Positions 69 to 2,083 of a stretch of DNA of 2,083 nucleotides are shown piece by piece. Position numbers and translations under genes: made by a program. This DNA comes from a virus (taxonomy: Duplodnaviria > Heunggongvirae > Uroviricota > Caudoviricetes). The notes under the pieces are model-generated. The model saw only the letters and a list, made by a program, of their open reading frames with translations. It did no database searches and was not told the DNA's origin. Location of the stretch: the IMG/VR virus record IMGVR_UViG_2711768034_000008, one strand, 5' to 3'. Position 1 is the stretch's first letter, and each line of letters begins with the position of its first letter.

Positions 69-100
69 ACGCCAGAATAATTGCTGGCGTTTTTCTTTTT
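69..100 (+). terminator. Candidate rho-independent terminator (tR'-like) upstream of the lysis genes
   Basis: Seen in sequence: 7-bp stem ACGCCAG (69-75) / CTGGCGT (84-90) with an 8-nt loop, followed directly by TTTTCTTTTT (91-100). Position about 90 nt upstream of the holin start fits the late-operon terminator that Q antitermination reads through in lambdoid phages (inference). Stem is short and not very GC-rich, so strength is uncertain. Confidence 0.4.
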
Positions 101-190: not shown

Positions 191-406
191 ATGAAATCCA
201 TGGATAAGTTAACAACGGGCATCGCCTACAGCACCTCTGCAGGCAGTGCTGGCTACTGGTTTTTACAGTTGCTCGATAAAGTCACGCCCTCACAGTGGGC
301 GGCAATAGGTGTATTGGGTAGTCTGGTATTTGGCATGCTGACGTATCTGACAAACCTTTATTTCAAGATTAAAGAAGACAGGCGTAAGGTTGCGAGAAGA
401 GAGTAA
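191..406 (+). CDS. essQ: Phage class II holin (pinholin), S21 / EssD / EssQ family, 71 aa, with dual-start antiholin/holin motif
   Basis: Translation [71 protein letters not shown]. Same length and architecture as phage 21 S21 and the E. coli prophage holins EssD/EssQ, recalled from memory: weakly hydrophobic Gly/Ala/Ser-rich TMD1, hydrophobic TMD2, basic C-terminal tail. Strong SD GGAGGT at 179-184, 6 nt before ATG 191; second in-frame ATG at 200. Stop TAA 404-406. The symbol essQ is a family-level guess based on pairing with an RrrQ-like endolysin; essD-like is also possible. Confidence 0.9.
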
Positions 407-410
407 TCCA

Positions 411-962
411 ATGACTCAAGACTATGAACTGGTTGTGAAAGGAGTTCGCAATTTTGAGAATAAAGTGGCGGTAACTGTAGCCTTACGGGACAAAAAACAC
501 TTTGACGGTGAAATTTTTGACCTGGACATCTCGCTGGACCGTGTTGAAGGTGCCGCGCTGGAGTTTTATGAGGCAGCAGCCAGAAGGAGCATCAGACAGG
601 TCTTCCTGGATGTTGCTGCCGGGTTATGTGAAGGGGATGAGCAGTCGCCGGAAAAGCGCCCCATAATTTTAGAGGCGCAGAATGTGTGGATAACCTACAA
701 AGGAAAGCTACCGGGAAGAATTACTGGTTCTCTGAAGACGCCACCGACGGCATTGCGGTCAGAAAAAGATGATATTGAATCGCCCATTGAAAAACTGGAG
801 GGCAGCGTCGCTGATCTGAATAAAAAATTGTCGGTGCTGATTCCTTCTGAAGATGAAAAAAAACGCCGCGATGAGCAGTTTGCGGCGTTTTACGATTATT
901 GCATTGAAGTTACTCGCAGGAATTTTGTGAAGATTTTTGAGGAGGGTAAATCTCTTCAGTAA
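411..962 (+). CDS. Hypothetical protein, 183 aa, hydrophilic and acidic, no predicted TM segment; translationally coupled to the holin
   Basis: Long open frame (MTQDYELVVKGVRNFENKVAVTVALRDKKHFDGEIFDLDISLDRVEG...FVKIFEEGKSLQ). ATG 411 lies 4 nt after the holin stop, preceded by an AGAGAG-like weak SD (398-404). Codon usage is broadly E. coli-like. I do not recognise the family. The track's TTG at 390 is a less likely start. Stop TAA 960-962. Confidence 0.6.
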   Translation: MTQDYELVVKGVRNFENKVAVTVALRDKKHFDGEIFDLDISLDRVEGAALEFYEAAARRSIRQVFLDVAAGLCEGDEQSPEKRPIILEAQNVWITYKGKLPGRITGSLKTPPTALRSEKDDIESPIEKLEGSVADLNKKLSVLIPSEDEKKRRDEQFAAFYDYCIEVTRRNFVKIFEEGKSLQ

Positions 963-1170
963 GCTTATTGGCGGACGCTGCAATTAATTCAGGAAGGTCC
1001 GCAAGGTCATCTGTCAGTGGATATGATGAAAAATCGGCGGCAGTTCTGTTAAGAAGCGCTTTAACTAATTCCTTTTCCTTCTCCGGCAACAAGTTGATTA
1101 GAGCTACGACTGCTTGCCTGAGTGCGATTAAATCAGCAAAAGTTTGTTTAGGTAGATTTGTGTAATCCAT
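910..1170 (-). CDS. Hypothetical small protein, 86 aa, acidic and predicted helical, encoded opposite to the lysis operon
   Basis: Minus-strand ORF MDYTNLPKQTFADLIALRQAVVALINLLPEKEKELVKALLNRTAADFSSYPLTDDLADLPELIAASANKLTEEIYPPQKSSQNSCE. ATG at 1168-1170 (plus-strand CAT) preceded by GAGG with a 5-nt spacer (minus-strand AGAGGCGACT-ATG). The region is visibly more AT-rich (roughly 37% GC in a 60-nt sample versus about 53% in the endolysin) and uses rarer codons (CTA, AGG, TTA), as horizontally acquired genes often do. The last 17 codons overlap the 3' end of the 411-962 gene. Family not recognised. Confidence 0.5.
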   Translation of the reverse strand: MDYTNLPKQTFADLIALRQAVVALINLLPEKEKELVKALLNRTAADFSSYPLTDDLADLPELIAASANKLTEEIYPPQKSSQNSCE

Positions 1171-1283
1171 AGTCGCCTCTGTGTTTATCAGATTGACATC
1201 CTCCTCCCGCCAGTGCCCATCACTGGTGAGGTAAGATTTAACATATCCGGGGATTTGAAGCCGATAAATCCTGATAAATATCC

Positions 1284-1820
1284 ATGAACGTAAAAATCAG
1301 ATACAGCCTGTCGGCCGCTGTTCTGGCACTGATTGCCGCCAGTGCTCCTGCCCCTGACATTCTCGATCAGTTTCTGGATGAAAAAGAGGGGAATCACACC
1401 ACTGCATACCGCGATGGCTCCGGCATATGGACCATCTGTCGGGGAGCAACGATGGTGGACGGTAAACCTGTTATTCCGGGAATGAAACTGTCGAAGGAAA
1501 AATGCGCCCAGGTTAACGCCATTGAGCGGGATAAGGCGCTGGCATGGGTGGAGCGCAATATAAAAGTTCCACTGACCGAGCCACAGAAAGCCGGTATCGC
1601 GTCATTCTGTCCCTATAACATTGGCCCTGGTAAGTGTTTTCCGTCGACGTTTTATAAGCGGCTTAATGCCGGTGATCGTAAAGGCGCATGCGAGGCGATT
1701 CGCTGGTGGATAAAGGACGGTGGACGTGATTGCCGCATTCGTTCAAATAATTGTTACGGTCAGGTTATTCGGCGTGACCAGGAGAGTGATCCTACCCACG
1801 TAATATGGACACAGGCCTAA
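1284..1820 (+). CDS. rrrQ: SAR endolysin (phage lysozyme, GH24 T4-lysozyme-like, R21 / RrrD / RrrQ class); 3' end fused to IS3 terminal sequence
   Basis: Translation [54 protein letters not shown]... N-terminus has basic residues followed by an Ala/Ser-rich weakly hydrophobic stretch (signal-anchor-release type). Catalytic triad Glu35 / Asp44 / Thr50 sits at the same positions as in phage 21 R21 (LEG...YKD...WTVC versus EKEG...YRD...WTIC here). The ORF is open to TAA 1818-1820, but from 1787 onward the codons are IS3 terminal-repeat sequence, so the last 10 residues ([10 protein letters not shown]) are not native. Symbol rrrQ is a family-level assignment from memory, not a database hit. No obvious SD upstream of ATG 1284. 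Confidence 0.88.
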
Positions 1821-1825
1821 GCGAG
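1787..1825 (-). repeat. IS3 terminal inverted repeat (orfB-proximal end)
   Basis: Sequence TGATCCTACCCACGTAATATGGACACAGGCCTAAG... starting at 1787 matches my recollection of the IS3 terminus (TGATC... ends). The transposase stop codon (plus-strand CTA at 1817-1819) lies inside it, as in IS3. Exact IR length (about 39 bp) is from memory. Confidence 0.6.
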
Positions 1826-2083
1826 GTTCTTGTTTTCAAATTGTTCCGGACTGAGGCCGCCACACCAACTGTGCCGCCGCCACCGATTGTAATCACATTC
1901 GATATAATTAAACACCGTTGCCCGCATTATTTCCCGGCTGATAAAGTGTTCTCCATGGATACATTCCACTTTCAGCGAATGAAAGAAGCTTTCCACGCAG
2001 GCATTATCGTAGCAGCAACCTTTTGCGCTCATACTTCCACGCAGATTATGCCGCTTCAGTTGCGCCTGATAATCTGCTGAACA
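1817..2083 (-). CDS. insF: IS3 family transposase OrfB (DDE integrase core), C-terminal portion; 5' part lies outside the window
   Basis: Minus-strand translation ...[88 protein letters not shown] with stop TAG at 1817-1819. Contains the conserved YDNAxxESFF motif carrying the catalytic Glu of the DDE triad and the IS3-type C-terminal tail. The frame is open to the window edge, so the Met at 2030-2032 in the ORF track is internal, not the start. Confidence 0.92.

What the first reader, a model, noticed from the sequence alone, without database searches (positions are those of the whole stretch)
910..962. Convergent genes with 53-bp overlapping 3' ends
The plus-strand 183-aa ORF (stop 960-962) and the minus-strand 86-aa ORF (stop 910-912) overlap tail-to-tail by 17 codons. 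If both are transcribed, the mRNAs are complementary at their 3' ends, which permits transcriptional interference or antisense regulation between late-operon expression and the moron gene. It could also mean one of the two ORFs is a shadow frame. No rho-independent terminator is evident for either gene in this interval.
Basis: seen in the sequence. Interest (0 to 1): 0.45.

Follow-up and report, generated by a model that had tools for sequence, protein, structure and literature searches.

The report
Conserved tail-overlapping convergent prophage gene pair
Two real genes on opposite strands of an E. coli prophage lysis region share their last 53 bases, and this arrangement, together with a hairpin just past the small gene, is kept in three diverged versions of the same two-gene cassette, so it is an inherited design and not an annotation ghost, although what it does is unknown.

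Summary
The + ORF 411-962 (183 aa) and the - ORF 910-1170 (86 aa) overlap tail-to-tail by 53 bp.

The window is the phage-21-type lysis cassette of a Qin-like E. coli prophage: pinholin, a YdfR/DUF1327 fusion, an antisense 86-aa gene, then a SAR-lysozyme cut by IS3.

A 17-codon open tail is unremarkable in a single sequence (P about 0.4). The conservation is what matters:
- All intact loci among about 97 related ones keep the 53-bp overlap.
- Two distant homologues of the 86-aa protein (41-55% identity) also overlap a convergent partner, by 59 bp (two codons more, same phase).
- This holds even where the cassette sits after Rz instead of between S and R.

The + ORF tail belongs to a roughly 65-aa helical module that also exists as a stand-alone 67-73-aa gene. 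The "shadow frame" reading is therefore rejected.

A stable hairpin (860-891, followed by a U-run on the - strand) lies 18-23 nt past the small gene's stop in all three types. It sits inside the partner's coding sequence and is absent from a homologue that lacks the small gene.

Best reading: an antisense, moron-like unit whose 3' end and terminator are embedded in a late gene. Antisense regulation is plausible but untested. Function is unknown. Interest is moderate.

The parts
191..406 (+). Phage-21-type class II holin (essQ-like pinholin). Context: the first gene of the lysis cassette.
   Evidence: Pfam PF04971 hit, E = 3e-34. RefSeq annotates it essQ, class II holin.
411..962 (+). 183-aa late-operon ORF: a YdfR/DUF1327 domain, a linker and a C-terminal helical module. 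Its stop is TAA 960-962.
   Evidence: PF07041, 143 bits, residues 1-112. phrog_2091 matches 1-183 of 183, E = 8e-112. Intact 183-aa homologues were found. PGAP calls only 411-746 and marks it a pseudogene.
759..959 (+). C-terminal module of the + ORF (two predicted helices, residues about 123-182). It is homologous to stand-alone 67-aa (L093) and 73-aa (L100) genes.
   Evidence: BLASTP of the 67-aa against the 73-aa protein: 43% identity over the last 35 residues, E = 7e-6. phrog_36381 and phrog_15975 also match. AF2 predicts helices 123-143 and 147-182 with low pLDDT.
910..1170 (-). 86-aa acidic three-helix protein gene (phrog_2572; RefSeq WP_001557934.1, hypothetical protein).
   Evidence: phrog_2572 matches 1-86 of 86, E = 4e-53. 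Distant homologues are P0139 and P0141. AF2 predicts H8-27, H30-48 and H56-74 with a disordered tail 75-86, pLDDT 72. It is the only stop-free frame and has the highest similarity between cassette types.
910..962 (.). Dual-coding overlap. It encodes the last 17 residues of both proteins: + TRRNFVKIFEEGKSLQ*, - (L)TEEIYPPQKSSQNSCE*.
   Evidence: 53 bp in all intact type A loci; 59 bp in types B and C. There are 6 variable sites, none synonymous in both frames.
856..891 (-). Terminator-like hairpin for the 86-aa gene, inside + ORF codons 150-161 (KKRRDEQFAAF). Arms are 860-869 and 882-891, the loop is 12 nt, and on the - strand a run of 8 U (856-863) follows, of which 4 pair in the stem.
   Evidence: -14.2 kcal/mol on the - strand (z = -4.1) and -18.7 on the + strand. 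The same hairpin lies 20-23 nt after the stop in types B and C. It is absent from the 296-aa homologue that lacks the small gene.
1176..1180 (-). Shine-Dalgarno-like AGAGG, 5 nt before the ATG of the 86-aa gene.
   Evidence: Read from the sequence. Types B and C have TAAGGA 7 nt before their ATG or GTG.
1233..1283 (-). Conserved block between the small gene's leader and the R start. It holds the only promoter candidate (weak): -35 TTATCG at 1267-1262, a 16-nt spacer, -10 TATGTT at 1245-1240.
   Evidence: The elements are conserved in types A, B and C while the spacer differs. They fall below the consensus scan threshold. The block also occurs upstream of R in H-19B, which has no antisense gene, and in Stx2 phage 86, which has a different antisense gene.
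1284..1788 (+). SAR-endolysin rrrQ, the downstream late gene. It can only be transcribed by reading through the antisense gene. IS3 truncates it at about 1788.
   Evidence: Pfam PF00959, RefSeq rrrQ, and the match to uninterrupted genomes ends at 1788.

Best explanation
The 53-bp overlap is the junction of a conserved, mobile, convergent two-gene cassette carried in the late (lysis) region of lambdoid E. coli prophages.

The two genes:
- The + gene is a late-operon gene. Its last ~65 residues are a helical module that can stand alone (67-73 aa) or, as here, be fused behind a YdfR/DUF1327 domain.
- The - gene encodes an 86-aa acidic three-helix protein. It has the anatomy of a moron placed antisense to the late operon: its own Shine-Dalgarno and start, a non-coding leader, and a hairpin plus U-run about 20 nt after its stop.
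- The small gene's last 17 codons and its terminator are packed inside the partner's 3' coding sequence, so the two proteins share 53 bases.
- Those bases encode the end of helix 3 plus the predicted disordered tail of the small protein (AF2) and, in the + protein, the end of its last predicted helix (low confidence). Both tails vary in sequence, which is probably why the dual coding is tolerated.

Shown here:
- Both frames are conserved protein families.
- Overlap length, phase and hairpin position are kept in three lineages.

Inferred:
- The small gene is transcribed on its own and stops at the hairpin.
- Q-antiterminated late transcription reads through the hairpin and the whole antisense gene to reach R and Rz.
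- The two transcription programmes therefore collide, and their RNAs are complementary over the whole small gene.
- Any regulatory use of that complementarity is a by-product of orientation and is unproven.
For: Context: holin, YdfR, hypothetical protein (-), rrrQ, rzpQ in E. coli HS and in the deposited complete phage genomes PhiR63_1, PhiR12_1 and 2H10.

The small gene is real:
- phrog_2572 full-length hit.
- An exhaustive HMMER search finds 89-93-aa homologues at 41-55% identity.
- It is the only stop-free frame, and it has the highest amino-acid identity and BLOSUM score of the six frames in all three comparisons between cassette types.
- A Shine-Dalgarno sequence plus start codon is conserved.
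- No indel occurs inside 913-1170 in 29 unique sequences, against 6 indel events in the 113-nt leader.

The + tail is real:
- The same C-terminal module occurs in the 169, 171, 176, 183 and 211-aa forms, with only in-frame indels.
- It occurs as a stand-alone 67-aa gene in L093 and a 73-aa gene in L100.
- The type A and type C modules are 43% identical over the last 35 residues.

The arrangement is conserved:
- The overlap is 53 bp in type A and 59 bp in types B and C, in the same phase.
- Type C sits between Rz (DUF2514) and DUF1441, not between S and R.

The hairpin:
- It lies 18-23 nt after the stop in all three types, at -12 to -16 kcal/mol with z = -3.5 to -4.1.
- Type B carries a G-C to A-U double change that also alters both encoded residues (R to H and A to V).
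- Two type A variants keep G-U pairs on the - strand.
- The 296-aa homologue without the small gene lacks the left arm and does not fold.

Presence/absence polymorphism: K-12 Qin and H-19B have no cassette.

Composition: the cassette has lower GC (0.40-0.46) than R (0.50-0.53).
Against: - There are no expression data of any kind.
- The promoter is only a sub-threshold candidate. The block that holds it also occurs upstream of R in phages without an antisense gene.
- Hairpin covariation is statistically weak: one compensatory pair, no better than shuffles.
- The hairpin loop is 12 nt, and the U-run is poor in types B and C.
- The protein-guided alignment favours the small-gene frame.
- Third codon positions of the small gene and of a + strand shadow ORF (968-1165) coincide, so wobble statistics cannot separate them.
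- The small gene has lost its ATG in one widespread haplotype (7 loci, 176-aa class), carries a nonsense mutation in 1 locus, and a CT insertion shifts both tails in one haplotype (4 loci). Constraint is modest: 13 synonymous against 20 non-synonymous variants.
- Partner homology for type B is not supported by BLASTP.
- No functional clue came from Pfam, PADLOC or PDB fold search.
Confidence: 0.7

Rival explanations
1. The overlap has no function of its own. Two low-constraint C-terminal tails happen to share DNA because a moron with its terminator recombined into the 3' end of a late gene, and the arrangement persists by inheritance and genome compaction. This is compatible with the anatomy above; it differs only in denying any regulatory role.
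For: - A 17-codon open tail is expected by chance (P = 0.38, or 0.95 given the other protein).
- Both tails vary freely between cassette types.
- Variation in the overlap (0.11 per site) is not clearly lower than in the rest of the small gene (0.15).
- A recombination breakpoint falls in or near the overlap in type C.
- In Stx2 phage 86 a different antisense gene sits in the same slot with a 9-nt gap and no overlap.
Against: - The overlap length changes only by two whole codons across lineages that share 41-55% protein identity.
- The partner's terminal motif (KSLQ, KSTQQG, KLSQQE) and the small protein's L-[TA]-E-x-I are both retained.
- The hairpin position is fixed.
Confidence: 0.45
2. The pair is an antisense-coupled regulatory switch. 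In the lysogen the small gene's transcript, ending at the hairpin, pairs with and destabilises leaky late mRNA. After induction, Q-modified polymerases override the hairpin and silence the small gene by collision and RNA duplex cleavage. The RNase E-binding YdfR domain of the + protein might take part.
For: - The geometry of convergent, fully complementary transcripts.
- The hairpin is stable on both strands.
- The K-12 YdfR N-terminal domain binds the RNase E catalytic half and co-purifies with RNA (PMC13232886).
- The pair moves as a unit between two genomic slots.
Against: - There is no transcript evidence.
- The partner occurs without the YdfR domain (L093 and type C).
- The small transcript encodes a conserved protein and is not just an RNA.
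- The start codon is lost in a common haplotype with no obvious consequence.
Confidence: 0.2
3. One of the two ORFs is not a gene. Either the 86-aa ORF is a shadow of + strand coding, or the + ORF beyond the DUF1327 domain is read-through of a broken ydfR, as the PGAP pseudogene call implies.
For: - PGAP annotates only 411-746 as a truncated YdfR pseudogene.
- A + strand ORF at 968-1165 mirrors the small gene with identical wobble statistics.
- Rare disrupted alleles exist.
Against: - Distant full-length homologues of the 86-aa protein have a conserved Shine-Dalgarno, start and length.
- The mirror ORF varies in length (59, 65 and 115 aa) and scores lower between cassette types.
- The + tail is a conserved module with stand-alone versions and only in-frame indels.
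Confidence: 0.06

Closest known systems
Lambda bor, a moron adjacent to the lysis cassette and transcribed antisense to the late operon (from established knowledge of phage lambda, not tested here)
   Same: A small gene in antisense orientation within or next to the S-R-Rz region of a lambdoid phage. It forms an independent unit with its own translation signals and terminator, and it is present or absent among related phages. The type C cassette occupies the same slot as bor, after Rz and before the packaging genes.
   Different: Bor is a lipoprotein that does not share coding sequence with its convergent neighbour. Here the 3' end and terminator are embedded in the neighbour's coding sequence, the neighbour moves with it as a pair, no lipobox or signal peptide is apparent by eye (not scanned), and expression from the prophage is unproven.
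Lambda cII / oop convergent overlap (from established knowledge)
   Same: Convergent transcripts whose 3' ends overlap by about 50 nt inside a protein-coding 3' end, with a terminator hairpin located within the opposing gene.
   Different: oop is a short non-coding RNA, whereas here the antisense transcript encodes a conserved 86-aa protein. Here the late transcript also covers the whole small gene, not only its end. RNase III dependence is unknown.
YdfR / DUF1327 (PF07041) of the Qin prophage
   Same: Residues 1-112 of the + ORF match PF07041 at 143 bits. It holds the same position directly after the class II holin.
   Different: K-12 YdfR is 103 aa, has no C-terminal module and no antisense neighbour, and overlaps the rrrQ start.
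Stx2 phage 86 orf5/orf6
   Same: The same slot and orientation: a YdfR fusion (268 aa, +) convergent with a small antisense gene (104 aa, -), followed by the same conserved block and R.
   Different: orf6 is not detectably related to the 86-aa protein (hhalign probability 0.1). The genes are 9 nt apart with no overlap, and no hairpin is present.

Membership tests
Moron (independent promoter-ORF-terminator unit inserted in a phage late operon) | Own factor-independent terminator just downstream of the ORF | tested here: met
   A 10-bp perfect stem with a U-run lies 18 nt after the stop, at -14.2 kcal/mol (z = -4.1). It holds the same position in all three cassette types. Caveats: the loop is 12 nt, the U-run is weak in types B and C, and termination itself was not assayed.
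Moron (independent promoter-ORF-terminator unit inserted in a phage late operon) | Own promoter | tested here: inconclusive
   The consensus scan found no hit upstream of 1170 on the - strand. A weak TTATCG-N16-TATGTT is conserved in position across types A, B and C, but the block also occurs in phages that lack an antisense gene.
Moron (independent promoter-ORF-terminator unit inserted in a phage late operon) | Present or absent among otherwise homologous phages, with deviating composition | tested here: met
   The cassette is absent from K-12 Qin and H-19B, and present in E. coli HS, PhiR63_1, PhiR12_1 and 2H10. A place covering at least 80% of window 700-1283 occurs in 294 of 5426 complete E. 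coli genomes. GC is 0.40-0.46 against 0.50-0.53 in R.
Moron (independent promoter-ORF-terminator unit inserted in a phage late operon) | Expressed from the repressed prophage | not testable with these tools
   No transcriptome or proteome data were available, and the literature search found nothing on this gene.
DUF1327 / YdfR (PF07041) | Match to the family profile above the gathering score | tested here: met
   143.4 bits against a cutoff of 25, with residues 1-112 on profile positions 1-92 of 93.
phrog_2572 (86-aa phage protein of unknown function) | Full-length profile match | tested here: met
   E = 4e-53, covering 1-86 of 86. The distant homologues P0139 and P0141 match the same family.
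Type I toxin-antitoxin of the par/Fst kind (convergent transcripts sharing a bidirectional terminator) | Small hydrophobic membrane toxin peptide and a non-coding antitoxin RNA | tested here: not met
   By inspection of the translations, both products are charged helical proteins with no evident hydrophobic segment. Both transcripts would be coding. There are no PADLOC hits.
Canonical intrinsic (rho-independent) terminator | GC-rich stem, loop of 3-8 nt, and at least 5 U in the 8 nt after the stem | tested here: inconclusive
   Stem criterion: met. U-run: met on the - strand of type A (8 U, 4 of them paired). Loop: 12 nt on the - strand, or 8 nt in the + strand fold. U-run in other types: UUUCUGUU in type C and UUGUCGCU in type B.

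The most novel reading that the evidence does not exclude
The pair is a dedicated, mobile sense/antisense module. The embedded hairpin and the fixed 53/59-bp dual-coding junction couple expression of a small prophage-expressed protein to the late lysis operon. The module would act as a lysogeny/lysis switch or a safeguard against leaky lysis-gene expression. It might use the RNase E-binding YdfR domain to which the partner is often fused.
Probability: 0.12. Interest if true: 0.65.

Novelty: new member of a known kind. Interest (0 to 1): 0.4.

Why it matters
- It corrects the public annotation. RefSeq marks an intact, conserved 183-aa gene as a pseudogene fragment and leaves its partner as an isolated hypothetical protein.
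- It provides a clean natural case of long-term antisense dual coding in the phase where no site is synonymous in both genes. A terminator is written into the opposing reading frame, and this is conserved across three lineages and two genomic slots.
- It defines a small, tractable cassette for testing whether antisense-oriented morons modulate late gene expression or lysis. The cassette is present in E. coli HS and in the deposited complete phage genomes PhiR63_1, PhiR12_1 and 2H10.
- If the overlap turns out to be only tolerated, the case is an ordinary product of phage mosaicism and genome compaction.

Tried and rejected
- Pfam on the 86-aa protein gave only a sub-threshold GCIP_C hit. The "DUF1823" label in the PhiR12 records was not reproduced.
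- PADLOC gave no hits for any of six proteins.
- A PDB Foldseek search with the AF2 model gave no match.
- Rfam returned only two chance-level hits, E about 0.8.
- Plasmid collection: no match.
- The species-representative genomes yielded a single E. coli locus.
- Literature: nothing on the small gene or its PHROG family, and one paper on K-12 YdfR.
- Wobble and dN/dS analysis of 29 unique type A sequences could not separate the small gene from its + strand mirror ORF, because their third positions coincide.
- The overlap shows no clear suppression of variation, but power is low at 6 variable sites.
- The formal covariation test of the hairpin did not exceed shuffles: one compensatory pair.
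- A promoter was sought with the consensus scan and by alignment between cassette types. Only a weak candidate emerged, and its block is not specific to the cassette.
- Stx2 phage 86 orf6 was tested as a possible fourth cassette type. It is not homologous and has no hairpin.
- BLASTP does not support homology of the type B partner to type C. That homology rests on synteny, the codon-level match around the hairpin and the terminal motif.

Full report
**What the window is.** The 2083 bases are the lysis region of a Qin-like lambdoid prophage of E. coli, 100% identical to many complete genomes. The order of features is:
- a tR'-like terminator at 69-90;
- a phage-21-type class II holin at 191-406 (PF04971);
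- a 183-aa ORF at 411-962 whose first 112 residues are a YdfR/DUF1327 domain (PF07041, 143 bits);
- an 86-aa ORF on the other strand at 910-1170;
- a SAR-type lysozyme, rrrQ, from 1284, cut at about 1788 by an IS3 end.

RefSeq annotates the - ORF as hypothetical protein WP_001557934.1. It calls only 411-746 of the + ORF, as a pseudogene "missing C-terminus". The same arrangement is present in the deposited complete phage genomes PhiR63_1, PhiR12_1 and 2H10, so it is not confined to decaying prophages.

**The observation.** The coordinates are exact: TAA at 960-962 on the + strand, TTA at 910-912 (TAA on the - strand), 53 shared bases. In one sequence this is not surprising.
- A frame stays open for 17 codons with P = 0.38 at this base composition.
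- 95% of synonymous recodings of the - tail leave the + frame open.

The question is therefore whether both frames are genes and whether the arrangement is maintained.

**Both frames are genes.**

The 86-aa protein:
- It is the full-length family phrog_2572 (E = 4e-53).
- A word-indexed search found only close E. coli relatives. An exhaustive HMMER scan of 1.8 billion representatives found two more clusters, P0141 (89-93 aa, 41% identity) and P0139 (93 aa, 55% over the N-terminal two thirds).
- Between these three types, the small-gene frame is the only one of six without stops. It has the highest identity and BLOSUM score in every comparison (the alignment was protein-guided, which favours it).
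- A Shine-Dalgarno sequence sits before the start in all types: AGAGG 5 nt upstream in type A, and TAAGGA 7 nt upstream in types B and C.
- In 29 unique type A sequences there is no indel inside 913-1170 but six indel events in the 113-nt leader. Variable-site density is 0.27 in the leader and 0.15 in the gene.
- A + strand mirror ORF (968-1165) is open in all three types. Its third positions coincide with those of the small gene, so wobble statistics are identical (13 synonymous in each frame; 20 non-synonymous in the small gene against 19 in the mirror). Its length varies (59, 65 and 115 aa) and it scores lower between types.
- AlphaFold2 on the single sequence gives three helices and a disordered tail from residue 75 (pLDDT 72).

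The + ORF:
- The YdfR family is a mosaic of 103, 114-116, 169, 171, 176, 183, 211, 243, 268 and 296-aa forms.
- The C-terminal segment ...DEKKRRDEQFAAFYDYCIEVTRRNFVK[IA]FEE[GS]KSLQ* is shared by the 169 to 211-aa forms, with only in-frame indels.
- It occurs as a stand-alone 67-aa gene directly after the holin in L093 and as a 73-aa gene in L100.
- These two are 43% identical over their last 35 residues, which include the overlap (E = 7e-6).
- The 183-aa ORF is thus a fusion of DUF1327 with this module, not a read-through artefact. The PGAP pseudogene call is an annotation artefact.

**The arrangement is conserved.**
- Among about 97 type A loci, every locus with both ORFs intact has a 53-bp overlap.
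- In type B (L099, L104-L110) the 89-93-aa gene overlaps a convergent YdfR fusion by 59 bp, again between S and R.
- In type C (L100-L102, L111-L115) the 93-aa gene overlaps the stand-alone 73-aa partner by 59 bp. There the pair lies between Rz (DUF2514) and a DUF1441 gene.
- The 6-bp difference is two codons, so the phase is unchanged: position 1 faces position 1, and position 3 faces position 2. In that phase no site is synonymous in both genes.
- The 6 variable sites in the type A overlap are 2 synonymous only in +, 2 synonymous only in -, and 2 non-synonymous in both.
- Both tails diverge between types but keep short motifs: L-[TA]-E-x-I in the small protein, and KSLQ, KSTQQG or KLSQQE at the partner's end.
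- Variation in the overlap (0.11 per site) is not clearly lower than in the rest of the small gene (0.15).

- Arms 860-869 (AAAACGCCGC) and 882-891 (GCGGCGTTTT) are perfectly complementary, with a 12-nt loop.
- On the - strand the stem is followed by a U-run (8 U, of which 4 pair). It starts 18 nt after the small gene's stop. Free energy is -14.2 kcal/mol, z = -4.1.
- The hairpin lies inside + ORF codons for KKRRDEQFAAF.
- Types C and B have the equivalent hairpin 20 and 23 nt after their stops: AACGCCGC/GCGGCGTT and AACGCCACC/GGTGGCGTT, z = -3.5 and -3.9.
- In type B, a G-C to A-U double change keeps the pair while changing both encoded residues (R to H and A to V).
- Two type A variants keep G-U pairs on the - strand, and one breaks a pair there.
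- Formally this is one compensatory pair and does not exceed shuffles, although 91% of cells pair against 38-72% in slid controls.
- The 296-aa YdfR form has a homologous module but no small gene. It lacks the 15 nt that make the left arm and does not fold.
- The consensus scan missed the hairpin because of its loop length.
- I read it as the small gene's terminator. It is weaker as a terminator on the + strand (UUUU then ACGAUUAUU), and termination was not assayed.

**Promoter.**
- No consensus sigma-70 site lies upstream of the small gene.
- Alignment of the three types shows a conserved block, ATATTTATCAGGnnTTATCnG ... GGnTATnnT, in which TTATC[GT]-N16-TAT[GT][TG]T is conserved while the spacer differs.
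- The same block lies upstream of R in H-19B, which has no antisense gene. It also lies upstream of R in Stx2 phage 86, where a different and unrelated antisense gene (orf6) occupies the slot.
- It may be a shared leftward promoter, part of the R leader, or a recombination linker. I leave this open.

**How it most likely works.**

Shown: a two-gene convergent cassette with dual-coded tails and an embedded hairpin, which moves as a unit and is present or absent among related phages. A place covering at least 80% of window 700-1283 occurs in 294 of 5426 complete E. coli genomes.

Inferred:
- The small gene is an independently transcribed, moron-like unit that stops at the hairpin.
- Late transcription from the Q-modified polymerase must read through the hairpin and the entire antisense gene to express R and Rz.
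- Complementarity therefore spans the whole small mRNA and not only the 3' ends, and the two programmes should interfere.
- Whether that interference is used is unknown.

The K-12 YdfR N-terminal domain binds the RNase E catalytic half and co-purifies with RNA (PMC13232886). This makes an RNA-level role conceivable, but the partner also exists without that domain.

Signs of weak constraint in type A:
- ATG changed to ACG in the 176-aa class (7 loci);
- one nonsense allele;
- a CT insertion at 912 that shifts both tails (one haplotype, 4 loci);
- a +1 frameshift in the + ORF (1 locus).

**Comparison with known systems.**
- The closest analogue in kind is lambda bor, an antisense moron next to the lysis genes. 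Type C sits in the bor slot.
- The geometry resembles lambda cII/oop.
- It is not a type I toxin-antitoxin: there is no hydrophobic peptide and both transcripts are coding.
- No function could be assigned from Pfam, PADLOC, PHROGs (all matching families are of unknown function) or PDB fold search.

**Verdict.** The shadow-frame reading is rejected and the "no terminator" remark is corrected. The antisense-regulation idea remains untested. This is a new, conserved example of a known kind: an antisense moron overlapping a convergent late gene. Interest is moderate (0.4).

Noticed in passing
window 1787-2083: An IS3 end (TGATCCTACCCACG...) truncates the lysozyme gene rrrQ at about 1788. The C-terminal part of the IS3 transposase lies at 1817-2032 on the - strand. 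Most related genomes have the uninterrupted gene.
   Followed up: partly
window 69-90 (+): A GC-rich hairpin with a T-run lies upstream of the holin. This is the position expected for the late-operon terminator tR', on which Q acts.
   Followed up: no
window 411-962; L001 4411-4746: PGAP annotates the intact, conserved 183-aa ORF as a truncated YdfR pseudogene (411-746) in E. coli HS and other genomes. The likely cause is that the YdfR family is a length mosaic of 103 to 296 aa.
   Followed up: yes
window 968-1165 (+): A 65-aa ORF mirrors the 86-aa gene. It is open in all three cassette types (59, 65 and 115 aa). Its third codon positions coincide with those of the 86-aa gene, so substitution statistics are identical. 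It is judged a shadow frame from similarity between types and its lack of a consistent length.
   Followed up: yes
window 1233-1287; L117 1201-1251; L118 1201-1278: A conserved block of about 55 nt next to the R start also occurs in H-19B, which has no antisense gene, and in Stx2 phage 86. There a different 104-aa antisense gene (orf6) is convergent with a 268-aa YdfR fusion. The slot looks like a hot spot for antisense cargo.
   Followed up: partly
window 1270-1286: The lysozyme start codon (1284) has no recognisable Shine-Dalgarno sequence (GATAAATATCC ATG). In K-12 the ydfR stop overlaps the rrrQ start, which suggests translational coupling that is lost here.
   Followed up: no
L100 1335-1779 versus L111 2501-2945: In type C the small gene differs at 1 of 223 nt outside the overlap, while the partner differs at 25 of 163 nt. 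This points to a recombination breakpoint in or near the overlap.
   Followed up: partly
window 1169; 1116; after 912; after 854 (variants in L069-L075, L081, the L055-type haplotype (n=4), L032): Naturally disrupted alleles exist. The small gene's start is ATG changed to ACG in the widespread 176-aa class. There is one nonsense allele. A CT insertion extends the small ORF to 137 aa and changes the + tail. A +1 frameshift hits the + ORF.
   Followed up: partly
window 928-958: An imperfect inverted repeat (TGAAGATTTTT / AAATCTCTTCA, 82% complementary) lies inside the overlap, just before the + stop. It is also present in L093. Its significance is unknown.
   Followed up: no
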